The notes beneath the pieces are model-generated. The model was not told the DNA's origin. It was given only the letters and a program-made list of their open reading frames with translations, and did no database searches. Shown here one piece after another: positions 4,460-52,632 of a DNA stretch of 64,000 nt. Position numbers and translations under genes: made by a program. This DNA is from Kiritimatiellia bacterium (GTDB taxonomy: Bacteria > Verrucomicrobiota > Kiritimatiellia > WLWN01): positions 75,792 through 139,791 of the forward strand of contig WLWN01000001.1 of the NCBI GenBank assembly GCA_012103575.1, read 5' to 3'. The number at the start of each line of letters is the position of its first letter. The stretch's first letter is position 1.

Positions 4460-4535
4460 TGGCACCCCCAACGGGAATCGAACCCGTGTTTCCGGGATGA
4501 GAACCCGACGTCCTAGTCCACTAGACGATGGGGGC
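4460..4535 (-). tRNA. tRNA-Glu (anticodon CUC)
   Basis: Cloverleaf folded by hand: acceptor GCCCCCA/TGGGGGT, T-arm ACGGG-TTCGATT-CCCGT, anticodon loop TTCTCAT, CCA encoded. Confidence 0.8.
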
Positions 4536-8360: not shown

Positions 8361-8690
8361 GGTAGAGTAACAATACAAGTGCAAAGGTCCGCAGCATAGT
8401 TCATTCTTTGGGTATCTGACCCCCCCAAAGGAGAACATAGAATGCCACGAACCTACGAACATTTAAACCGTTATGAACGAGAAGTGATAGCCCAGATGCT
8501 AAAAGAAAAATATAGCTTATCTCAAATTGGCCATCGCCTGGGCCGATCCCCCTCGACTATTTGGTGCGAATTTCGCCGTAATCAAGTCCGTGGCCGCTAT
8601 TACCCAAGACACGCAAATGGCCTGGCTCAAAGCCGATTACAGCTAGCTCGAAAGCCTCAAAAAGTGATGGGAGCTAGCAAAGAATAAGTG
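8361..8690 (+). mobile_element. IS30-family element, truncated copy (left end and first 81 codons only)
   Basis: Left end GGTAGAGTAACAATACAAGTGCAAAGG identical to copies at 17149, 32309, 40160; transposase ORF 8442-8687 diverges from the full copy after residue ~80. Confidence 0.7.
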
Positions 8691-8880
8691 GACCTGAATC
8701 CGTCAGCTATCGCTTCGGAAGGCGTTTTGGGGCTCAAAAGTTGAAAATTTTTTCCTTGAGATGCTCGCTTTTGGGCGGATTGGGACCGGCAAGTATCACC
8801 CTGATGAATTTTTTGAGCGTACAGGTCAGATTCACTCTGATTTGACCATTTTGGGGCGTAGGCCTCCTTGGGCAGTCGCC

Positions 8881-10253
8881 TTAGAGTATTGTTAAAGGTG
8901 CACGGAGGGCTATGCGAAGGAATGGGGCAATATCTTGTATCACTTCAAACCAGCAACAACGCTTGCCAAAGTGAAGTTCAATTCGTCCGGCGTGGCGGAC
9001 CAATCGAACCGCGCAATAAACGATATTTTTGAGAACCGTTTTGATTCGCCAGCACGGGATGTTGATTTTTTGCGGGGCAAGCCCAGCCCGTTTGATGACC
9101 TCTTGGCCAAGACCGCGCAATAGGTTGAAGGCCACCATGGCGCATAACAAAATAATCTTATTGGCACAGAGTCTCCCCGAAGGCAATCGCTCAACATCAA
9201 GATCGCTTTTGAGTTCACTGTGGTACTGCTCGCTGGGGCCATGTCCATGATAGAGATCTAGCACCGTCTTGGCACGACAAGAGAGGTTCGTCTACCAGGT
9301 GTTCACCTCAAGTTTAGGAACCAGAAGTTTCTGACCATCGATATCGATGGTGCGTTCAATCACTTCGAAGGCCACCGGGACACAAGGGCGGTTTTGGTCA
9401 CCACCGGGATGGAAATGATCGAAAAAGCCTGTGTAAACGTTCTTGCCTTCACGACTGTCTTGTTTGTCTCCAACTCGGCGTGCAAGGGCCAGCATTTGTT
9501 CAGGACATTCGCGGTGAGGATTTCGCTTTACGATAAAATAATGATCCCCAAAAGCGTCGAAGTTATCGGCCGCAGCGTTGCCACTATCAAGCCGAAGCAA
9601 ACATTTTCCACCTAGGCCCAGGGTTTGGAGCGTTTCAACGCTGCGGGCAATAAACGCGGTCGTTCCCGACTGACAATGTTGTTTACCGGGTCGAAGTTCG
9701 CACTCAAGCATGTGGCCTTGAGTGCCCACATAGGCAAATATCGGGGCGTAACCATCATGGCCCTTATAGGTATAGGAAACGCCTTCTTTCGAAGAGCCTG
9801 AGTGATCCAAAGGGCTCACATCGATATCGACGGGAACAAGATCAAGCCCTTCGACATCTACCTAGCCAAAGGGGCCCGAGGAAAGAAGTTCGGTGTTGAG
9901 TTTGCGTAGCCCCACATGGGTTCTGGCTGGGGGCAGGTCGTCGGAACGACATCGGAACACCGGCTCAGAAGCTACCTTTTTAACTCCCCTTTTAAAGTCC
10001 AAAGGCATTCATAAAAATCTCATCACCCCGGTACAGGTCGATATCATTGAAAATCGGTTCGACCGTTGCAAAGTAAGCCGATCTGGGTAAGGAGGATCTC
10101 CCGATCAGAGATCGCATCGGAGCGGCGTGGTTGAAAATTGGAGGGAAGAATCTGTTGAGCATGATCCTCAAGCAGCAGGCCGCAAAGATGATTTCCGCTT
10201 GTGCTGTTGAGTTCGCCCTTGCCAGTCTTTATTTTATATTGTTTCATATACAC
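8881..10253 (-). pseudogene. IS1380-family transposase, disrupted (in-frame TAG at 9292-9294 plus further breaks)
   Basis: ORFs 9292-9819 and 8881-9264 are in the same frame separated by TAG; motifs GHDGYAPIFAY...LRPGKQHCQSG...RLDSG and C-terminal HSELKSD...LPSG...AFNLLR. Confidence 0.55.
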
Positions 10254-10327
10254 ACCTGTTGGGGTGGGGTTGTTTGTTTGAATACGGGTATGCTCCCCGC
10301 TTTAGCCCAACAGGTAATGAAAAATCG

Positions 10328-10702
10328 TCAGATTTTGTCTGACGGATTCAGGAGATACCCTTTAGTGAGAGTTAGGTCTGAGATAACAAAATGACTCGCA
10401 TAGCTCTTGAAAATCCGGCTACTATTATCTCCACTAATGGTCAGATTTGTTCGACCTGGCCCAATAATGGTTAAGTCCTGGTTAATATCAATTTGACCGG
10501 TAGTAAGCGTGATGGTTGCACCGTCGAGAATATTTGCAAAAACAATGGTGTCTCCAGGTGCAGCTATTCCAACGGTGTCTCGCAATGAGCCTGGACCATT
10601 ATCCATTGAATTGAGCACAGTCAACGTTGCTCCCTCACTGGATACTACCAAAAAAATTAAGAACAGGATTAAAAAAGCTACGTAACGGAATGTATTGTTT
10701 AT
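10328..10702 (-). pseudogene. N-terminal fragment of a large beta-helix surface protein (signal peptide + GSLRD...TIVF...ITL...LTISG start)
   Basis: ORF reads straight out of the MITE at 10703; only ~100 aa of beta-helix before stop; no ATG start. Confidence 0.4.
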
Positions 10703-10865
10703 CCTGGATCCGTCAGTTAAACGCGGTTTTCTGCACGAACCATTTGGGCCAAAAGGAATTACAAAAAAGCCTCGACGCACCCAGCGGGTGCGCCTGCGTT
10801 TTTTTGCAACCTTTTGCCTCCAAAGCATTCGCACAGAAATCCCACGTTTAACTGACGGATCCAGG
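10703..10865 (+). mobile_element. MITE-1 copy 1 (163 bp, 21-bp perfect TIR CCTGGATCCGTCAGTTAAACG)
   Basis: Near-identical to copies at 15947-16109, 36061-36223 (inverted) and 51184-51338 (left TIR truncated). Confidence 0.75.
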
Positions 10866-12255
10866 GTTCAATATCACCTGGCACACCATCATTATCTGTG
10901 TCAGTAGACACGTCATAAACACGGGCAAACCACGTATAGGCTCCTGATAATGGATTTTCTCCAATATCAGATAGTGATGAACTCAAAACAGCTCGGTAAT
11001 AACCAGGCCCAAGATTTGTACTAAAACTTTGCAAGGCTACATTAAAATCATTTTCATAGGTAAATTACGCTTCCTGTCACAACCACATCATCCACAGTAC
11101 TATGAATCCCATCTGGACCCGCCTCAAAAATGGCAAAGGAACTGATATCTAATGTTGATGCATCCATAGGCTCACTGAATGTAGCTGAAAAGACAGAAAG
11201 ATCTTTGAGCAACGACCCGTTCTTAGGTGTCACCGCTTTTACCTGGGGTGAGGTCGCATCAAGTAGAAGTGTTACAACAATGTTACTACTCCACGTTGCA
11301 TTTCCTCCTGTATCACTGGCACGTGTTTGAATTGAAAATGTGGACTGCTCGGTTAATCGAGGGGTTATGAAATGATATTCAAACGGGAAGTTTCCATCGG
11401 TAGGGGCTTTGATTCCATCAATATAAAACTCAACATTACGAATTTGGACATCATCATTCACCTCAACGTTAATGCGGACCCATTTCCCTTCTTCAGCTTG
11501 GGGAGGATTTAAGGAAAAGTTGGCTGACAACGTAGCAGACGGAGGATTTCCTGCCGTATCCGCAGATAAGTAATTGATGACCTGCAGACCGGCGCTGTGA
11601 TCGGCTACATAGGCTTGGCCATTATATATGGAGACCGCACGGGCAATCCCTGGTGTTTGGTGTTCGGTGATAGTTGAAGGCATTTACATTACTCGGGTTA
11701 CTGACATTGTATAAAGAAATGTTGTGAGCGCCATCCAATGTACTATTAGGACTCACTGCAGCAATACCCAACCCTGAACCATTCACGACCATGTGTTTCC
11801 AACCAAACTGCGAGGCTGATAAGTTATCAACAGGGGATCAGCAGGATCACTGACATCAAGCGTATTATACCCTCTACGATATATTGTGTAGGCAATGTCA
11901 TTTCCGACAAACAAACGCATTCGCCCACTGCCTGAACTCGGTGTACCCGGTGAAGAAACCGAGCCAAGGATTTGCATAGACCCCTTTTAGTATTCTAGAA
12001 TATGAAAAGCCCTTAAAGCAAGGACATATAAGTAATTTCCTGAAAAAACCACGTCATGGACCTCGTAAAGGAAAGAGTATGTTTCAAGAACCTCACCACT
12101 CCCTAAATCAACTTCACATACTTTGCTATTAAAACCATTGGCAATCCCCACAAAGGCGATCCCTCCTGCGGCAGCAACAGCCCGTGTAAAACCTATAAAG
12201 TTGACTTGATGGGTAATAGAGGCCAACGCTGGATCAGTAATGTCAATGATAGCTA
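10866..12255 (-). pseudogene. LVIVD-repeat/beta-propeller-like surface protein, fragmented (4 ORF pieces), 5' cut by IS630, 3' interrupted by MITE-1
   Basis: ORF fragments 10759-11034, 11054-11683, 11783-11977, 11987-12226 in different frames; repeated YVADHSAGLQVIN / NYLYVLA type motifs. Confidence 0.4.
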
Positions 12256-15896: not shown

Positions 15897-15946
15897 TCTA
15901 ATGAAAAAGAGTAAGAGCATGAATAAAGAACGTATAAATATAATAG

Positions 15947-16109
15947 CCTGGATCCGTCAGTTAAACGCGGTTTTCTGCACGAACCATTTGGGCCAAAAGG
16001 AATTACAAAAGAGCCTCGACGCACCCAGCAGGTGCGCCTGCGTTTTTTTGCAACCTTTTGCCTCCAAAGCATTCGCACAGAAATCCCACGTTTAACTGAC
16101 GGATCCAGG
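15947..16109 (+). mobile_element. MITE-1 copy 2
   Basis: Perfect TIRs; same internal sequence as copy 1. Confidence 0.75.
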
Positions 16110-16170
16110 AATAGGAAAACGTTCCGCCCCAAATCTTTTTTCTGCTATCTTCTTCGTATTCTGTGGTTTA

Positions 16171-17148
16171 ATGATCTTTCTCTTGTATGCGACAACCTCG
16201 ACAGCTAATCCTCTGGTCACGGTTACATCAAAAGTCGTGGGGACTCAACTGGAAGTTTCTCCCGTGCAAATGGCGGTGCCAAAAGGAATCGCCGGGTCTG
16301 TAAATGTGAACATTGTAGCAGGACTTGGAGGTGAAAATGAAACATCCCTTGCCCTAGCCGATGGCGTTCATATTGAGGCAACCCTACGGGGTCCTTCTTT
16401 TGCGGCCCGACAAACCTTTGGTCGCCCAAATGAACCCCTGTTGTTCCCGCCATTACCGCTAGTCGGCGATTATCAACTCGATGCTATTAAGCTGGTCGAT
16501 TCTGCAACCGGTAAAATCCGCCTCGAAGGTTCCCCCTCAAGCATCCCTATTTTTGTATTCAAAGAAGTGCTGGTTACCCGGGTAACTTCACGGCCGTTAA
16601 CCCTCGACGAGATTCAGGAAAAAGGGATTTTGATCGATGAATCCAATTTTCGGGCGGTGGAATTTGAAGTGGGGTTTGTGATCGACGGAAAAACGGTTCC
16701 GGTCAAGTTACCGGTGATTGCCCCCACGTTTAAAGAAGCCACAGAAATTATTCCTCAAGCAGAAATCGATGAAAAGATGGCGGCAGCCAATGTGATGAAT
16801 CAGCAACTTTCTCAGACAGCGGAGTTACCGCCGGAACTGGAAGCCGCAGGTCTAAACATTGAAATTCAAGGCATCAATTTTCAGTTTGTGGATACAACTT
16901 TAGAATTAGGTCTTGCTCTACAACCTCCTCCGATTCCTGCATTGATGGTGATTCCGGGGAATATTGGTTTTATCAATCAGTTTTTTAGTGTTCAGATTTT
17001 TATGGAAAATGGGGTGCCGGGAGGTTCGGGACTTAACGTGCATAATATGCAGGCCGAACTACTCCTGCCGGTGGGATCGGATTTGGTAGCTGGAACGTAT
17101 GAGGTTTCCGGCGATGATCCATTGCGTTTTGCGCGGACAGGAACGAAT
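16171..17148 (+). CDS. hypothetical protein fragment, 3' end runs into IS30
   Basis: ORF 16171-17187 continues into the IS30 left end at 17149; no recognisable motifs. Confidence 0.35.
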
Positions 17149-35494: not shown

Positions 35495-35551
35495 GCTATT
35501 TATTCTGACCTATCTGTCATGATAAATCCCGCAAGGATAAAAGAGGAGTTT

Positions 35552-36043
35552 TTAAGAGGGACCCGTAATACGTTTTTTTTGAAAAAACGTTTGTAGAAGA
35601 TCCTTGCCGTCTTCTTCTAAAATGCCTGAACAGATTTCCACGTGATGATTCAATGCCTTACACTGTAGAATATTAAACAAAGACCTTCCACCTCCTCTCA
35701 ATGGATCGGTCATAGCCCAGACAACGCGTGGAATTCTGGCTTGGACAATGGCACCTGCACACATCGGGCAAGGTTCTTTAGTCACATAGAGCACGGTATC
35801 TAACAGTCGCCAGTTTTCTAATGCACTGGCTGCTTGGGTAATGGCAATAATTTCTGCATGGGCCGTTGGGTCTTTAAGTAATTCCACTTGGTTATAAGCC
35901 CGGGCAATAACCCGGTCTTTATGAACAATGACGGCTCCCACAGGGACTTCATTTTCCCGGGCCGCTTGGTGGGCCATGTTGATCGCCATTCTCATATAGG
36001 TTATGTCATTATCTATAACTTGCATTAGGATACAATTTTTCAA
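35552..36043 (-). CDS. tadA: tRNA-specific adenosine deaminase
   Basis: HAEIIAI...PCPMCAGA zinc-binding deaminase motifs. Confidence 0.85.
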   Translation of the reverse strand: MKNCILMQVIDNDITYMRMAINMAHQAARENEVPVGAVIVHKDRVIARAYNQVELLKDPTAHAEIIAITQAASALENWRLLDTVLYVTKEPCPMCAGAIVQARIPRVVWAMTDPLRGGGRSLFNILQCKALNHHVEICSGILEEDGKDLLQTFFQKKRITGPS

Positions 36044-36060
36044 CCCGTTTTAGTATATTA

Positions 36061-36223
36061 CCTGGATCCGTTAGTTAGACGTGGGATTTCTGTGCGAATG
36101 CTTTGGAGGCAAAAGGTTGCAAAAAAACGCAGGCGCACCCGCTGGGTGTGTCGAGGCTTTTTTGTAATTCCTTTTGGCCCAAATGGTCCGTGCAGAAAAC
36201 CGCGTTTAACTGACGGATCCAGG
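36061..36223 (-). mobile_element. MITE-1 copy 3 (inverted orientation)
   Basis: Perfect TIRs; located 18 bp upstream of tadA start. Confidence 0.75.
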
Positions 36224-36306
36224 TATTATCTCTATCTAGGATTCCTTATCCGATATTGACATTTAATGTATTTGATTTTTATGCGTAACGCTATACACTC
36301 CTGCCC

Positions 36307-37164
36307 ATGTCACGTTTACCATCATGGATTCGATTATCACTGTGTACAGACCAAGGCTTTAACCATGTTCATAGCCTGATCTCAAGTCATAAATTAAACA
36401 CCGTTTGTGAGAGCGCCAAATGTCCGAACCGACATGCCTGTTGGAATCGTGGTACAGCTACGATGATGATATTAGGCGACGTGTGCACACGTGACTGTAA
36501 ATTTTGCGCGATCAAAACCGGGCGACCTCTCCCTTTAGACTATGATGAACCCCGTCGAGTGGCTTCAGCAGCAAAATCAATGAACTTAAATCATGTGGTT
36601 ATAACGAGTGTAGCTCGTGATGATCTTGATGATGGAGGGGCGGGTATCTTTGCAGAGACCATATCAGCTATAAGAGATGAATTGCCAGAGGCCTCTATTG
36701 AAGTATTAACGCCCGATTTTGACAGTAAAATTGAAAATCTTGATCAAGTATTAAAAGCGCGGCCTGATGTTTTTAACCACAATCTGGAGACGGTTAAACG
36801 ATTTCAACCTCTGATACGTCCACAAGCTTCGTACGGACGTTCGTTGGCGACTCTCAAACATGCGGCATCCAGTCCTATTCGGCCTGCTATTAAATCGGGT
36901 ATGATGTTGGGATTAGGCGAGACCGAAGAAGAGATCGTTGAAGCGATGGGAGATCTCGTTTCCGTGGGATGCGAACTGTTGACCTTAGGGCAATATCTAA
37001 GGCCGACACCTGATCATATTAAAGTCAATCGTTATGTTGCACCTGATGAGTTTAATCATTTTGCCGATCGAGCACGAGAGATTGGATTCAAAGGTGTTGC
37101 TTCAGGGCCTATGGTCCGATCTTCTTACAAAGCTGACGAATTGCTTGCACAGTTACGTTCTTAG
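36307..37164 (+). CDS. lipA: lipoyl synthase
   Basis: Radical-SAM CTRDCKFC motif plus N-terminal Cys cluster. Confidence 0.9.
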   Translation: MSRLPSWIRLSLCTDQGFNHVHSLISSHKLNTVCESAKCPNRHACWNRGTATMMILGDVCTRDCKFCAIKTGRPLPLDYDEPRRVASAAKSMNLNHVVITSVARDDLDDGGAGIFAETISAIRDELPEASIEVLTPDFDSKIENLDQVLKARPDVFNHNLETVKRFQPLIRPQASYGRSLATLKHAASSPIRPAIKSGMMLGLGETEEEIVEAMGDLVSVGCELLTLGQYLRPTPDHIKVNRYVAPDEFNHFADRAREIGFKGVASGPMVRSSYKADELLAQLRS

Positions 37165-39089: not shown

Positions 39090-39164
39090 GCGGGGCGTAG
39101 CTCAGCCTGGTAGAGCGCTACGTTCGGGACGTAGAAGCCGTGGGTTCAAATCCCGCCGCCCCGA
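39090..39164 (+). tRNA. tRNA-Pro (anticodon CGG)
   Basis: Hand-folded cloverleaf: acceptor CGGGGCG/CGCCCCG, anticodon loop TTCGGGA, T-arm GTGGG-TTCAAAT-CCCGC. Confidence 0.8.
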
Positions 39165-39919: not shown

Positions 39920-39996
<77 letters not shown>

Positions 39997-42641: not shown

Positions 42642-43867
42642 GGTGGATTGTAAAATTAAATGCCGCAAAAAATGGACCTGAGAGCTTCTGCTCATGCGGC
42701 GATCTCCAAATCGAAACACTCCTGTGCGGGTTTGTATTCTAGGATCTTGCGAGGATAGTTGTTAATCCATTTTTCAATCTCACCAATACGGTCGATGGTA
42801 TATTTTCCGATGTTGTCTCCTTTGGCGACGAAACGACAAACCATACGGTTGGCATTTTCGTTGGAGCCTCGTTCCCAGGAAGAATACGGGTGAGCATAAT
42901 AGAGTTTAACACGTCTCTTTTTGCTAAATCCGGAACGTTCCATCTGCTCCACGTCGAGAAGCTCGCTCCCGTTATCGGCTGTAATCGACTTGAACATCGA
43001 TCTGAATGGGCCAACTCCCGTCGATCTTTCGATCGCTTTGAGGGCCTGCAGAACCGATGCCTGTGTTTTATCCGAAAGTTTTCTCACCCTTAGCATTCGG
43101 GTCTTTCTTTCTACTAACGTCATTAAAACCGGTTTTGAAGTTCCTTTTCCGCCGACGATCAAATCCAATTCCCAGTGCCCAAATTCCTCGCGTTTTTCTA
43201 CGGTCTTAGGTCGTTTTTCGATACTGGTCCTTCGGGCATGTTGCTTTTTAACCCGCTTAATAGCACGTCTTTTTCGTTTTATCCGTTTTCGTTTTTCCCA
43301 TAGGGACTCGTTGCTCACCCCCGGGATGAGACCTTGGTCAATATAGGTATACAGCGTTTTTGTACTCACCGCTGCAGGTCTCTGCTCTTGTTTAAGCAAA
43401 GGAGCAACCACATCGGGTGAGCGTTTGTGAACAAGAATGTGCTCGCTGGTAAACACGGCCGCTTCATGATGCTTTCCAAGCTTAAGCTCAGGTCCCTTGG
43501 CCGTCGCATTTAGATCATGAAGTTCCTGGGCTCGATCACTGCTGTATGCTTTCTTCTTTCGCGGCTCTGTATCGAAATGCTCTACCTCCCCACGTTTGAT
43601 TTCGCGCTCTATGGTTCGACGATGCCTTCCCAGATAGCTAGTAGCTATCTCCAAAGGACGTCCTCGGTTTTTGAGCATTGTTTCAATCATGATCCGTTCT
43701 TTCTGTGTCAAATGCTTGCCTTTTCGGGGATGAATACTACTCTTGATTTGTTCCATGTCTTTTTCCTTTTTTTGTCTTCTGTCGAGTTTCTAAATCTAGA
43801 AGATTTCGGCATGGAACACTCCTGTTTTACAATATCTTCTTTTGGGCATTTAATATTACAATTCTCA
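42642..43867 (-). mobile_element. IS30-family element (type 2), copy A
   Basis: Ends TGAGAATTGTAATATTAAATGCC / GGCATTTAATTTTACAATCC; near-identical to copy at 49959-51183 in inverted orientation. Confidence 0.75.
42692..43756 (-). CDS. IS30-family transposase (354 aa)
   Basis: GHWELDLIVGG...ITADNGSEL...YYAHPYSSWERGSNENANRMV DDE block. Confidence 0.8.
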   Translation of the reverse strand: MEQIKSSIHPRKGKHLTQKERIMIETMLKNRGRPLEIATSYLGRHRRTIEREIKRGEVEHFDTEPRKKKAYSSDRAQELHDLNATAKGPELKLGKHHEAAVFTSEHILVHKRSPDVVAPLLKQEQRPAAVSTKTLYTYIDQGLIPGVSNESLWEKRKRIKRKRRAIKRVKKQHARRTSIEKRPKTVEKREEFGHWELDLIVGGKGTSKPVLMTLVERKTRMLRVRKLSDKTQASVLQALKAIERSTGVGPFRSMFKSITADNGSELLDVEQMERSGFSKKRRVKLYYAHPYSSWERGSNENANRMVCRFVAKGDNIGKYTIDRIGEIEKWINNYPRKILEYKPAQECFDLEIAA

Positions 43868-49883: not shown

Positions 49884-49958
49884 TCATCCTAAACACTATC
49901 TCCTTTTTATATTTAAAAAATGACAATGGAAAGATTTAAAGATTGTGTCAACTAAAAT

Positions 49959-51183
49959 GAGAATTGTAATATTAAATGCCCAAAAGAAGATATTGTAAAA
50001 CAGGAGTGTTCCATGCCGAAATCTTCTAGATTTAAAAACTCGACAGAAGACAAAAAAAGGAGAAAGACATGGAACAAATCAAGAGTAGTATTCATCCCCG
50101 AAAAGGCAAGCATTTGACACAGAAAGAACGGATCATGATTGAAACAATGCTCAAAAACCCAGGACGTCCTTTGGAGATAGCTACTAGCTATCTGGGAAGG
50201 CATCGTCGAACCATAGAGCGCGAAATCAAACGTGGGGAGGTAGAGCATTTCGATACAGAGCCGCGAAAGAAGAAAGCATACAGCAGTGATCGAGCCCAGG
50301 AACTTCATGATCTAAATGCGACGGCCAAGGGACCTGAGCTTAAGCTTGGAAAGCATCATGAAACGGCTGTGTTTATCAGCGAGCACATTCTTGCTCACAA
50401 GCGCTCACCCGATGTGGTTGCTCCTTTGCTTAAACAAGAGCAGAGACCTGCAGCGGTGAGTACAAAAACGCTGTATACCTATATTGACCAAGGTCTCATC
50501 CCGGGGGTGAGCAACGAGTCCCTATGGGAAAAACGAAAACGGATAAAACGAAAAAGACGTGCTATTAAGCGGGTTAAAAAGCAACATGCCCGAAGGACCA
50601 GTATCGAAAAACGACCTAAAACCGTAGAAAAACGCGAGGAATCTGGGCACTGGGAATTGGATTTGATCGTCGGCGGAAAAGGAACTTCAAAACCGGTTTT
50701 AATGACGTTAGTAGAAAGAAAGACCCGAATGCTAAGGGTGAGAAAACTTTCGGATAAAACACAGGCATCGGTTCTGCAGGCCCTCAAAGCGATCGAAAGA
50801 TCGATGGGAGTTGGCCCATTCAGATCGATGTTCAAGTCGATTACAGCCGATAACGGGAGCGAGTTTCTCGACGTGGAGCAGATGGAACGTTCCGGATTTA
50901 GCAAAAAGAGACGTGTTAAACTCTATTATGCTCACCCGTATTCTTCCTGGGAACGAGGCTCCAACGAAAATGCCAACCGTATGGTTTGTCGTTTCGTCGC
51001 CAAAGGAGACAACATCGGAAAATATACCATCGACCGTATTGGTGAGATTGAAAAGCGGATTAACAACTATCCTCGCAAGATCCTAGAATACAAACCCGCA
51101 CAGGAGTGTTTCGATTTGGAGATCGCCGCATGAACAGAAGCTCTCAGGTCCATTTTTTGCGGCATTTAATTTTACAATCCACC
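49959..51183 (+). mobile_element. IS30-family element (type 2), copy B
   Basis: Same termini as copy A; right end abuts a MITE-1 copy lacking its first ~8 TIR nucleotides. Confidence 0.75.
50069..51133 (+). CDS. IS30-family transposase (354 aa)
   Basis: Near-identical to 42692-43756 product (few substitutions). Confidence 0.8.
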   Translation: MEQIKSSIHPRKGKHLTQKERIMIETMLKNPGRPLEIATSYLGRHRRTIEREIKRGEVEHFDTEPRKKKAYSSDRAQELHDLNATAKGPELKLGKHHETAVFISEHILAHKRSPDVVAPLLKQEQRPAAVSTKTLYTYIDQGLIPGVSNESLWEKRKRIKRKRRAIKRVKKQHARRTSIEKRPKTVEKREESGHWELDLIVGGKGTSKPVLMTLVERKTRMLRVRKLSDKTQASVLQALKAIERSMGVGPFRSMFKSITADNGSEFLDVEQMERSGFSKKRRVKLYYAHPYSSWERGSNENANRMVCRFVAKGDNIGKYTIDRIGEIEKRINNYPRKILEYKPAQECFDLEIAA

Positions 51184-51338
51184 CGTCAGTTAAACGCGGT
51201 TTTCTGCATGAACCATTTGGGCCAAAAGGAATTACAAAAAAACCTCGACGCACCCAGTGGGTGCGCCTGCGTTTTTTTGCAACCTTTTGCCTCCAAAGCA
51301 TTCGCACAGAAATCCCACGTTTAACTGACGGATCCAGG
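51184..51338 (+). mobile_element. MITE-1 copy 4 (left TIR truncated at IS junction)
   Basis: Begins CGTCAGTTAAACG directly after IS30 type 2 end; right TIR intact; ends 25 bp upstream of serS ATG. Confidence 0.65.
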
Positions 51339-51363: not shown

Positions 51364-52632
51364 ATGCTCGATTTAAAAATAGTTAGGAACGAGATCGGTC
51401 GTGTTCGGGATGGAATCCGTTCTCGATCTGTCGATATTGATTTGGATGTTGTGGTACAGTGTGATCAACAACGTCGGCTGCTTCTTCAAGACGTTGAGTC
51501 TTTGAAAAGTGAGCGAAACCGTGTCTCTAAAGAGATTGGAGCTCTTAAAAAGAGTGGTGAAGATGCTTCGGCAAAACAAGAGGCCATGCGGTCGGTGGGT
51601 ATCCGTATCAACCAGTTAGATCAAGAGATTCGTGAAGTTGAAACCCACTTACACGATCTATTGCTAGCGATTCCTAATATGCCTCATGAAAGCGTTCCCC
51701 TTGGGCAAGATGATGCAGCCAATAAATTAGTGCGTACGCATGGAGCACCCAAACATTTTTCTTTTACCCCTCGATCTCATGGGGAATTGGGTGAGAAACT
51801 ACGGCTTTTTGATTTTGAACGTGCAACCCGTATGAGTGGCGCAGGATTTCCGTTGTTGCTGGGTCAGGGAGCTCGTTTGGAGCGAGCCTTAATTCAGTTT
51901 ATGTTAGATCTACATATCAAAGAGCATGGGTACACAGAAATTGCGCCCCCTTTATTGTGTACACCAGCGGCTATGACAGGGACGGGCCAATTACCGAAGA
52001 TGGCCGAAGATGTGTATCATATCGTTGGCGATGATCTCTATTTGATTCCTACTGCTGAAGTCTCTGTAACGAATTATTATAGAGAAGAGGTTATACAGAA
52101 TCCATTGCCTTTATTGTTTGTGGCATACACACCCTGTTTTAGACGGGAAGCCGGTGCAGCGGGTAAAGATACCCGTGGACTGATCCGTGTACATCAATTT
52201 AATAAAGTGGAGATGGTAAAATTTGTCGAGCCCGATCGATCGTATGATGAGCTTGGATTTCTTGTTAAAGATGCAGAAGATGTTTTGCAGCGATTAGGGT
52301 TGCATTATCGTGTACGTGAACTGTGTACCGGAGACCTAAGTTTTGCCGCGGCTAAATGTTATGATATAGAGCTTTGGGCCCCGGGCCAGCAGGATTGGTT
52401 AGAGGTCTCTTCATGTAGCAATTTTGAAGCGTTTCAGGCGCGTCGTGCGAATATCCGGTACCGAAACAGTGAAGGAAAAACAACATTTGTTCATACATTG
52501 AACGGTTCTGGGGTTGCTTTGCCGCGTTTAATGGTTGCTATTTTGGAAAATGGGCAGGAAGAAGACGGCTCCGTTTCTTTGCCCGAAGCGCTATGGCCTT
52601 ATATGGGGGGCGTGCAACGACTGACGGCATAG
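51364..52632 (+). CDS. serS: seryl-tRNA synthetase
   Basis: MLDLKIVRNE start with GGGGAG 9 nt upstream; class II aaRS motifs; track ORF begins 15 nt earlier at 51349. Confidence 0.9.
   Translation: MLDLKIVRNEIGRVRDGIRSRSVDIDLDVVVQCDQQRRLLLQDVESLKSERNRVSKEIGALKKSGEDASAKQEAMRSVGIRINQLDQEIREVETHLHDLLLAIPNMPHESVPLGQDDAANKLVRTHGAPKHFSFTPRSHGELGEKLRLFDFERATRMSGAGFPLLLGQGARLERALIQFMLDLHIKEHGYTEIAPPLLCTPAAMTGTGQLPKMAEDVYHIVGDDLYLIPTAEVSVTNYYREEVIQNPLPLLFVAYTPCFRREAGAAGKDTRGLIRVHQFNKVEMVKFVEPDRSYDELGFLVKDAEDVLQRLGLHYRVRELCTGDLSFAAAKCYDIELWAPGQQDWLEVSSCSNFEAFQARRANIRYRNSEGKTTFVHTLNGSGVALPRLMVAILENGQEEDGSVSLPEALWPYMGGVQRLTA

What the first reader, a model, noticed from the sequence alone, without database searches (positions are those of the whole stretch)
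36061..36223. MITE-1 carries a terminator-like hairpin and sits immediately upstream of gene starts in a fixed orientation
Each MITE-1 copy contains a GC-rich hairpin (CGCACCC-AGC-GGGTGCG) followed within a few nucleotides by a T7 run, i.e. a plausible intrinsic terminator on one strand. In three of four copies the same element end lies 18-62 bp upstream of a start codon in the same relative orientation: tadA (start 36043), serS (51364) and the ORF at 16171. For serS the only sequence between the IS30 type 2 transposase stop and the start codon is the IS end plus this MITE, so any dedicated serS promoter must lie within the MITE or the 25 bp after it. The element may act as a portable insulator and promoter cassette.
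Basis: inference. Interest (0 to 1): 0.5.

Follow-up and report, generated by a model that had tools for sequence, protein, structure and literature searches.

The report
IS1380-derived MITE with palindromic hairpin
The 163-bp repeat is a real miniature transposon, mobilised by an IS1380-type insertion sequence in a sponge symbiont; its "terminator" is the tip of a whole-element palindrome on both strands, and across about 40 insertion sites it shows no preferred orientation or position relative to genes, so it looks like ordinary selfish DNA, not a regulatory cassette.

Summary
The repeat is real. There are four copies in the window: 10703-10865, 15947-16109, 36061-36223 and 51183-51338, the last one truncated. 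It is a 163-bp MITE with 21-bp perfect terminal inverted repeats and a 5-bp AT-rich target duplication.

Its 14 terminal bases match both ends of a 1660-bp IS1380-family insertion sequence in the same window (8693-10352). The window comes from the 3.1-Mb contig of a Kiritimatiellae MAG, by inference 'Ca. Patea custodiens' from the sponge Mycale hentscheli.

The hairpin is the apex of a palindrome that spans the whole element. It is flanked by A6 and T7, so both strands carry a hairpin followed by a U-run. On both strands the U-run starts 5-6 nt after the strong stem, which is not canonical for an intrinsic terminator. Two of the four window copies carry stem-breaking substitutions.

Across 40 unique insertion sites in the window and sponge metagenome contigs:
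- orientation relative to co-directional genes is 8 versus 9;
- element ends lie within 100 bp of gene starts (16) about as often as gene stops (15);
- substitutions are not depleted in the stem.

No sigma-70-like promoter lies inside the element.

The 'fixed orientation' is a small-sample coincidence. This is a new MITE family of a known kind. Any termination effect is plausible but weak, bidirectional and untested.

The parts
36061..36223 (-). MITE copy C, the reported element. The consensus orientation (hairpin then T7) is on the - strand. It lies between the divergent genes tadA and lipA.
   Evidence: nhmmer score 201 bits on the - strand versus 71 on the + strand; alignment A1
36056..36060 (.). 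Target-site duplication TATTA, left copy. The right copy is at 36224-36228.
   Evidence: Read directly from the sequence. A perfect 5-bp TSD is present at 28 of 39 sites.
36224..36228 (.). Target-site duplication TATTA, right copy.
36134..36150 (.). Central hairpin, the apex of the whole-element palindrome. It reads CGCACCC-GCT-GGGTGTG on the + strand and has an A.C mismatch on the - strand.
36121..36127 (-). T7 run on the - strand (A7 on the + strand), 6 nt 3' of the stem in the tadA direction.
36158..36163 (+). T6 run on the + strand, 5 nt 3' of the extended 9-bp stem in the lipA direction.
10703..10865 (+). MITE copy A, identical to the family consensus. It has no target-site duplication (TTTAT versus GTTCA), so it has been rearranged or recombined.
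15947..16109 (+). MITE copy B. TSD AATAG at 15942-15946 and 16110-16114. It lies 61 nt upstream of the ORF at 16171.
51183..51338 (+). MITE copy D. The first 7 nt of its left TIR were removed by the adjacent IS30. It lies 25 nt upstream of serS.
   Evidence: The same arrangement is present in 4 other metagenome assemblies.
8693..10352 (-). 1660-bp IS1380-family insertion sequence, the presumed autonomous relative. Its 14-bp perfect IRs, CCTGAATCCGTCAG, match the MITE termini at 13 of 14 positions. Its transposase is split over at least 3 frames.
   Evidence: PF13701; NF033539, E = 1.9e-27 for the window fragment; 2.3e-52 and 178 bits for the L031 ORF
49950..51180 (+). IS30-family element (transposase at 50069-51133) abutting and truncating MITE copy D. 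Ends are approximate.
35552..36025 (-). tadA, tRNA adenosine(34) deaminase. The ATG is at 36025; the longest ORF starts at TTG 36043.
   Evidence: (NF008113, 164 bits)
36307..37164 (+). Lipoyl synthase gene, 83 nt from the other end of MITE copy C.
51364..52632 (+). serS, serine--tRNA ligase.
   Evidence: (TIGR00414, 484 bits)

Best explanation
MITE-1 is a non-autonomous miniature transposon of 163 bp.

What is shown:
- It has 21-bp perfect terminal inverted repeats and no coding capacity.
- It shares its terminal 14 bp with an IS1380-family insertion sequence present in many copies in the same genome.
- It is flanked by 5-bp AT-rich duplications, with a target preference of C|WWWWW|G.
- Many copies are identical or nearly identical.
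- It has no orientation or position bias relative to genes.
- The whole element is an imperfect palindrome of two arms of about 80 nt. The GC-rich hairpin flanked by A6 and T7 is simply the tip of that palindrome and therefore reads the same way on both strands.

What is inferred:
- The IS1380-family transposase moves the element in trans.
- The copies near tadA, serS and ORF 16171 are there because AT-rich intergenic DNA is both the preferred target and the only place where insertions are tolerated.
- When the element is co-transcribed, the long hairpin may cause some bidirectional pausing, termination or RNA processing. Because the U-runs sit 5-6 nt from the strong stem, and two essential genes (tadA, serS) lie directly behind the element with no recognisable promoter in between, termination is probably leaky.
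For: MITE anatomy:
- TIRs and copy alignment.
- 40 unique sites, 28 of 39 with a perfect 5-bp TSD. TSDs are 86% A+T against 55% for the window. C is enriched at -1 (15 of 28) and G at +6 (13 of 28).

Link to the parent IS:
- The IS at 8693-10352 has 14-bp IRs CCTGAATCCGTCAG, against CCTGGATCCGTCAG in the MITE. IS ends in L010 and L039 match 14 of 14.
- Transposase fragments hit PF13701 and NF033539 'IS1380 family transposase'.
- IS1247, of the same family, is 1672 bp with a 5-bp DR (PMC3281130).
- The MITE right arm resembles the subterminal region of IS end A: local score 26 against 15.5 +/- 2.9 in shuffles, reached by 3 of 500.

Recent amplification:
- 8 sites carry the exact consensus, and 35 young copies differ from it by a mean of 1.6 nt.

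Palindrome:
- The whole-element RNA fold is -86.6 and -107.2 kcal/mol on the two strands, with z = -11.8 and -14.6.

No orientation or position bias.

No selection on the hairpin after insertion:
- 6 stem substitutions against 4.7 expected.

No promoter inside the element. No Rfam family matches.
Against: - No full-length IS1380 transposase ORF of about 440 aa was found for this genome. The longest variant is 304 aa, apart from a 551-aa fusion, so current mobilisation in trans is not shown.
- Only the terminal 14-19 bp clearly link the MITE and the IS.
- Three diverged copies keep the central hairpin through compensatory changes (CGCACCC/GGGTGCG to TGTACCT/GGGTACA). This shows some constraint on the palindrome, whether for transposition or for function.
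- Gene calls used for the orientation statistics come from a home-made codon-score caller, not a curated annotation.
- Copies come from short-read metagenome assemblies, which may homogenise repeat interiors.
- tadA and serS still need a promoter, and none was identified.
Confidence: 0.82

Rival explanations
1. The element is a domesticated, orientation-specific cassette. Its hairpin and T7 run insulate the downstream gene from upstream transcription, and the arm distal to the hairpin (or the TIR plus flank) supplies a promoter for that gene.
For: - Hairpin plus T-run is present.
- Essential genes tadA and serS start 25-35 nt from the same element end, with no other recognisable promoter. The serS arrangement is fixed in five sponge assemblies.
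- The TIR hexamer TTAACT lies 12 nt from each end and forms hybrid promoter-like sites with some flanks: CTAACT-15-TATACT 29 nt before the tadA ATG, and TTAACT-16-TATATT at the left end of copy B.
- IS1380-family elements ISEcp1 and ISPme1 carry strong outward promoters at their 3' ends (PMC9330008).
- The hairpin is kept by compensatory changes in a diverged subfamily.
Against: - Orientation is random: 8 versus 9 in co-directional contexts, and the right versus left end within 100 bp of a start is 7 versus 9.
- No -35/-10 pair lies in the element or before serS, even at a relaxed 8-of-12 threshold. None lies at the IS end either.
- The motif is symmetric, so orientation could hardly matter.
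- The U-run is 5-6 nt from the strong stem.
- Stem-breaking substitutions are present in 2 of 4 window copies, including the tadA copy, and there is no depletion of stem substitutions.
- About 1% divergence leaves little time for domestication.
Confidence: 0.08
2. The element is a bidirectional attenuator or RNA-processing site with fitness consequences, but no promoter. Whichever way it inserts, the roughly 80-bp RNA hairpin lowers read-through between neighbouring transcription units or stabilises upstream mRNAs, as reported for Correia, ERIC and REP elements. In an IS-ridden genome this damps IS-driven transcription.
For: - Both strands have very stable folds with hairpin plus U-run.
- The palindrome is conserved by covariation in old copies.
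- Copy D sits exactly between an IS30 and serS.
- Comparable effects of MITEs on mRNA stability and expression are described in the literature (PMC3184786; PMC11578231).
Against: - There is no enrichment at 3' ends or between convergent genes: 5 of 33 sites with two called neighbours.
- Substitutions in young copies are spread uniformly.
- The T-run is interrupted (T3CT3) in 2 of 3 old copies.
- The geometry is non-canonical for a terminator.
- No expression data are available.
Confidence: 0.1

Closest known systems
Bacterial MITEs derived from insertion sequences, for example MITEPye1 of Paracoccus yeei (IS1182-related; PMC11578231)
   Same: Small and non-coding. TIRs match the ends of a resident IS. 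Flanked by direct repeats. Intergenic, multi-copy, and folding into a long RNA stem-loop.
   Different: Different IS family (IS1380) and unrelated sequence. Much higher copy number: 4 copies in 64 kb, and at least 40 sites sampled, against 1-3 copies per chromosome.
IS1380-family insertion sequences (IS1247, ISEcp1, ISPme1)
   Same: 5-bp target duplication, element ends beginning with CC, and an IS length of about 1.66 kb. The transposase matches NF033539 and PF13701.
   Different: The MITE has no transposase. The experimentally shown outward promoter of ISEcp1 (TTGAAA-18-TACAAT; PMC9330008) has no counterpart in the MITE arms or in the resident IS end. In a search of papers holding both 'IS1380' and 'MITE' (21 papers, of which three were read), I found no description of an IS1380-derived MITE.
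Correia repeat-enclosed elements (CREE/NEMIS) of Neisseria
   Same: MITE of about 100-160 bp with TIRs. Often found 5' of genes. Can influence neighbouring gene expression, and its transcripts form long hairpins (PMC3184786).
   Different: Correia elements carry measured promoters and an IHF site, and (from my own knowledge) duplicate TA. This element duplicates 5 bp, has no recognisable internal promoter, and has unrelated TIRs.
[quoted passage not shown]
   Same: An interspersed repeat whose predicted structure resembles an intrinsic terminator (PMC3184786).
   Different: [quoted passage not shown] This element is not: 5 of 33 sites are convergent, and ends are near starts as often as stops. 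This element also has TIRs, TSDs and a parent IS.

Membership tests
Bacterial MITE (non-autonomous IS derivative) | Small size (under about 500 bp) without a transposase gene | tested here: met
   163 bp. The only ORF inside it is mechanical (55 aa, 36092-36259).
Bacterial MITE (non-autonomous IS derivative) | Terminal inverted repeats | tested here: met
   21-bp perfect TIR CCTGGATCCGTCAGTTAAACG.
Bacterial MITE (non-autonomous IS derivative) | Target-site duplications flanking the copies | tested here: met
   28 of 39 sites have a perfect 5-bp duplication, and several more differ by 1 nt.
Bacterial MITE (non-autonomous IS derivative) | Multiple dispersed, near-identical copies | tested here: met
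   4 copies in the window and 40 unique sites overall. 8 are identical to the consensus.
Bacterial MITE (non-autonomous IS derivative) | An autonomous element with the same termini in the same genome | tested here: met
   The IS at 8693-10352 and IS ends in many loci carry CCTGRATCCGTCAG.
IS1380-family derivative | The IS sharing these termini encodes an IS1380-family DDE transposase | tested here: met
   NF033539: E = 2.3e-52, 178 bits for a 272-aa partial ORF, against a cutoff of 180 for the full-length protein. Also PF13701 and tblastn hits to annotated IS1380 transposases.
IS1380-family derivative | 4-5 bp target duplication typical of the family | tested here: met
   5-bp TSD. IS1247 has a 5-bp DR (PMC3281130).
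IS1380-family derivative | An intact transposase is available, and mobilisation in trans occurs | tested here: inconclusive
   More than 160 transposase variants exist in the genome, but none is full length (longest 304 aa). These may be true frameshifts or assembly indels. Mobilisation itself cannot be tested here.
Intrinsic (Rho-independent) terminator | GC-rich stem-loop | tested here: met
   7-bp stem of -11.3 kcal/mol (T7 strand) and 9-bp stem of -15.3 kcal/mol (other strand). The stem is weakened in copies B and C.
Intrinsic (Rho-independent) terminator | U-tract immediately (0-2 nt) after the stem | tested here: not met
   5-6 unpaired or poorly paired nt separate the strong stem from the U-run on both strands. 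Only a weak alternative 5-bp stem (GCGGG-UGCG-CCUGC, -5.7 kcal/mol) abuts the T7 run.
Intrinsic (Rho-independent) terminator | Measured termination of transcription | not testable with these tools
   This needs Term-seq, an in vitro transcription assay or a reporter assay.
Sigma-70-type promoter carried by the element | -35 and -10 hexamers with a 16-18 nt spacer inside the element or at its junction | tested here: not met
   None in copies C or D or their flanks. A relaxed scan finds only junction hybrids that use the TIR hexamer TTAACT: left end of B, and C with a 15-nt spacer.
SPRITE-like terminator repeat | [quoted passage not shown] | tested here: not met
   Convergent contexts make up 5 of 33 sites. 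Ends lie within 100 bp of stops 15 times and of starts 16 times.
REP/REPIN elements | Short palindromes of 20-40 bp without TIR or TSD, associated with a RAYT transposase | tested here: not met
   The element has TIRs and TSDs and is linked to a DDE IS.

The most novel reading that the evidence does not exclude
In this IS-saturated symbiont genome the MITE has begun to be co-opted. Its symmetric hairpin with flanking U-runs would act as a bidirectional insulator that shields essential genes such as serS and tadA from IS30/IS1380-driven transcription. The TIR hexamer TTAACT, 12 nt from each end, would supply a portable -35 box that builds new promoters with the AT-rich target DNA. Under this reading each insertion both cuts a gene off from its old upstream signals and re-arms it. 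A side point is that this may be the first described MITE family derived from IS1380.
Probability: 0.08. Interest if true: 0.5.

Novelty: new member of a known kind. Interest (0 to 1): 0.22.

Why it matters
As it stands, this is a tidy example of a recently amplified MITE with its likely parent IS in an uncultured, IS-ridden sponge symbiont that makes pateamine. The genome paper does not mention transposases, insertion sequences or MITEs.

It matters in three modest ways:
- Annotation: about 160-bp repeats break short-read assemblies and create spurious ORFs.
- Understanding genome erosion in a host-restricted symbiont.
- As a possibly first-described IS1380-derived MITE with a clear C|WWWWW|G target preference.

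It would matter more only if expression data showed that the element really insulates or drives essential genes. The sequence evidence gathered here argues against a specific, orientation-dependent role.

Tried and rejected
- A blastn search of the element against the plasmid collection gave no match.
- Rfam at gathering thresholds on the whole window found only three tRNAs. Rfam at E <= 1 on 35950-36350 found nothing.
- A literature search by accession prefixes (JAALKB, WLWF and others) returned only noise.
- The genome-contig scan returned one contig labelled Gammaproteobacteria MH1_Bin6. I first took this as the host organism. It was later shown to be a misbinned Kiritimatiellae contig, because its proteins are identical to NKB25556 and NKB25557.
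- I looked for a full-length parent IS in the fetched loci. Only ends and truncated copies were found, because the assemblies break at the repeat.
- In L012 the transposase next to a MITE end is an IS630-like insertion, not the parent.
- An exact look-up of P0002 to fetch IS copies from the 3.1-Mb contig failed.
- I considered Tn3-derived TIMEs because of the 5-bp TSD. I rejected this because the termini match an IS1380-family element instead.
- I considered an ISEcp1-like outward promoter inherited in the MITE arms. None was found in the MITE or at the IS end.
- I considered the IS30 as the parent. Its IRs are unrelated, and it merely truncates copy D.

Full report
**Observation**

The reported interval 36061-36223 is exactly one copy of a 163-bp repeat. 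The same repeat occurs at 10703-10865 (copy A), 15947-16109 (copy B) and 51183-51338 (copy D).
- The motif CGCACCC-NNN-GGGTGCG, allowing up to 2 mismatches, is found four times against 0.02 expected.
- A T7 run follows the stem after the six bases CCTGCG.
- The quoted distances hold. The same element end lies 17 nt from the TTG at 36043 of tadA (35 nt from the ATG at 36025), 25 nt from the serS ATG at 51364, and 61 nt from the ORF at 16171.
- Gene identities are confirmed for tadA and serS.

Three details differ from the finding.
- Only copies A and D have a perfect stem. Copy B, and the reported copy C, each carry a stem-breaking substitution on the T7 strand (hairpin energies -13.6, -11.0, -8.2 and -12.4 kcal/mol for A to D).
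- The opposite strand carries an even better hairpin (9 bp, -15 to -17 kcal/mol) followed after 5 nt by T6, so the motif is bidirectional.
- Copy C lies between the divergent genes tadA and lipA, with its other end 83 nt from the lipA ATG. It therefore says nothing about orientation.

**What the element is**

- The copies are 95-100% identical and end in a 21-bp perfect inverted repeat, CCTGGATCCGTCAGTTAAACG.
- The two halves are imperfect reverse complements over their whole length. The RNA of either strand folds into one long hairpin (-86.6 and -107.2 kcal/mol; z = -11.8 and -14.6).
- The 'terminator' hairpin, with A6 on one side and T7 on the other, is the tip of that palindrome.

I scanned public contigs for the TIR and recovered 38 metagenome loci plus one genome contig. 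A profile search over these found 59 hits, of which 43 are nearly full-length copies at 40 unique insertion sites.
- 28 of 39 sites show a perfect 5-bp duplication, for example TATTA around copy C and AATAG around copy B.
- The duplicated pentamers are 86% A+T, against 55% for the window.
- C is over-represented just before the pentamer and G just after it, giving a target of C|WWWWW|G.
- Copy A has no duplication and sits between gene fragments, so it has probably been rearranged.
- Copy D has lost seven bases of its left TIR to an adjacent IS30.

**Parent element and host**

A search for the terminal 20-mer, allowing mismatches, found two inverted sites 1660 bp apart at 8693 and 10352. Both begin CCTGAATCCGTCAG, which matches the MITE terminus at 13 of 14 positions. 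IS ends in L010 and L039 match 14 of 14.
- The ORF fragments between these sites hit PF13701 and NCBIfam NF033539, 'IS1380 family transposase'. The window fragment gives E = 1.9e-27. A 272-aa ORF of another copy (L031) gives E = 2.3e-52 and 178 bits.
- IS1247, of the same family, is 1672 bp and makes 5-bp duplications (PMC3281130).
- Beyond the termini, the MITE right arm resembles the subterminal region of the IS end downstream of the transposase gene (score 26 against 15.5 +/- 2.9; reached by 3 of 500 shuffles). I treat this only as suggestive.

Exact-sequence look-ups place the window's serS, lipA, IS30 transposase and other proteins on a 3,096,896-bp contig of a MAG labelled Kiritimatiellae bacterium. 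That matches the single 3.09-Mb contig reported for 'Candidatus Patea custodiens', the pateamine-producing symbiont of the sponge Mycale hentscheli (PMC7157528). The identification of the organism is therefore by inference.
- That paper does not mention transposases, insertion sequences or MITEs.
- The genome holds more than 160 distinct variants of the IS1380 transposase. None is full length; the longest is 304 aa, apart from a 551-aa fusion. Whether an active transposase exists is open. Assembly indels are a possible cause.

I called genes with a codon-usage score trained on the window's long ORFs and classified each unique site in the element's own orientation.
- Between co-directional genes the element lies in the same direction 8 times and the opposite direction 9 times.
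- Between divergent genes it occurs 11-12 times, and between convergent genes 5 times.
- The right end (the one next to tadA and serS) is within 100 bp of a gene start 7 times, and the left end 9 times.
- Ends lie within 100 bp of gene stops 15 times and of gene starts 16 times.
- These proportions hold at four gene-calling stringencies.

The fixed orientation seen in the window is therefore a sampling coincidence. The family is simply intergenic.

Consensus scans find no sigma-70-like promoter inside the element, in the 25 bp before serS, or anywhere in 35500-36800.
- A relaxed scan finds only junction hybrids that use the TIR hexamer TTAACT, 12 nt from each end, together with flanking DNA. 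These are TTAACT-16-TATATT at the left end of copy B, and CTAACT-15-TATACT 29 nt before the tadA ATG.
- The resident IS end has no ISEcp1-like outward promoter either (compare PMC9330008).
- The IS30-MITE-serS arrangement is identical in four other sponge assemblies.

**Terminator plausibility**

On both strands the strong stem is separated from the U-run by 5-6 poorly paired bases. Only a weak 5-bp alternative stem (-5.7 kcal/mol) abuts the T7 run. From established knowledge of intrinsic terminators, the U-tract must follow the stem directly, so I expect at most partial termination.

tadA and serS are generally essential genes (my own knowledge). They lie directly behind the element on the T7 strand, with no recognisable promoter in between. 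The simplest inference is that transcription reads through.

Among 35 young copies (mean 1.6 differences from the consensus, 8 identical to it), substitutions are spread evenly:
- stem: 6 observed against 4.7 expected;
- T-run: 0 against 2.4;
- TIRs: 16 against 14.2.

There is thus no sign of purifying selection on the hairpin after insertion.

Against a purely neutral view, three older copies keep the central hairpin through compensatory changes (CGCACCC/GGGTGCG to TGTACCT/GGGTACA), and a few other pairs covary. However, two of the three have an interrupted T-run. The constraint on the palindrome could be for transposition as easily as for RNA function.

**Comparison with known elements**

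The element meets every structural criterion of a bacterial MITE, and its parent belongs to the IS1380 family.
- It works like other IS-derived MITEs such as MITEPye1 (PMC11578231).
- It recalls Correia elements and SPRITE, which are discussed as promoter- or terminator-bearing repeats (PMC3184786).
- It is not a member of either family. Its TIRs, 5-bp duplication and lack of positional bias all differ.
- In a search of papers holding both 'IS1380' and 'MITE' (21 papers, of which three were read), I found no description of an IS1380-derived MITE. The family may be undescribed, but absence from that library is weak evidence.

**Caveats**

- Gene calls are home-made.
- Short-read assemblies may homogenise repeat interiors.
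- All copies come from one organism. The single 'Gammaproteobacteria' contig is misbinned.
- No expression data were available.

**Verdict**

The MITE call is right and can be extended to a parent IS, a target-site rule and a host. The proposed role as an orientation-specific insulator-plus-promoter cassette is not supported. This is a new member of a known kind, of modest interest.

Noticed in passing
window 8442-10352: Nested insertion sequences. A 1660-bp IS1380-family element (8693-10352) sits inside an IS30 copy, of which only the N-terminal HTH part of the transposase (8442-8687) remains on this side. Genome-wide there are more than 160 variants of the IS1380 transposase, none full length. 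This points either to frameshifts shared by all copies or to assembly indels.
   Followed up: partly
window 10328-11683: MITE copy A has no target duplication. It separates a Big_7-domain ORF (11054-11683, - strand) from an ORF with a signal-peptide-like start and beta-helix-like repeats (10328-10702). The latter frame stays open back into the MITE to a GTG at 10834, so the element could donate an N-terminal extension.
   Followed up: no
window 49950-51338: An IS30-family element abuts MITE copy D and replaces the first 7 nt of its TIR. The missing TIR bases are not found on the other side of the IS30, which suggests an adjacent deletion. The arrangement is identical in four other sponge metagenome assemblies.
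   Followed up: yes
L012 4059-5290: A MITE copy is interrupted after 48 nt by an IS630-like element with a frameshifted DDE transposase. MITEs are therefore themselves targets for other insertion sequences.
   Followed up: partly
L004 (JAALKB010000137.1): A contig filed in GTDB under 'Gammaproteobacteria bacterium MH1_Bin6' encodes proteins identical to NKB25556 and NKB25557 of the Kiritimatiellae contig and ends in the MITE. It is almost certainly misbinned.
   Followed up: yes
L025 1017-1179, L038 1075-1237, L008 4714-4876: An older, roughly 10-15% diverged MITE subfamily in which the central hairpin sequence has changed but still pairs (TGTACCT/GGGTACA). The T7 run is interrupted in two of the three copies.
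   Followed up: partly
window 42692-43756 and 50069-51133: Two further full-length IS30-family transposase genes lie within 64 kb, and the genome cluster holds 68 protein variants. Together with the IS1380 and IS630 elements this indicates a massive IS expansion typical of recent host restriction.
   Followed up: no
window 4463-4535, 39091-39164, 39923-39996: Three tRNA genes. They are the only Rfam matches in the window.
   Followed up: no
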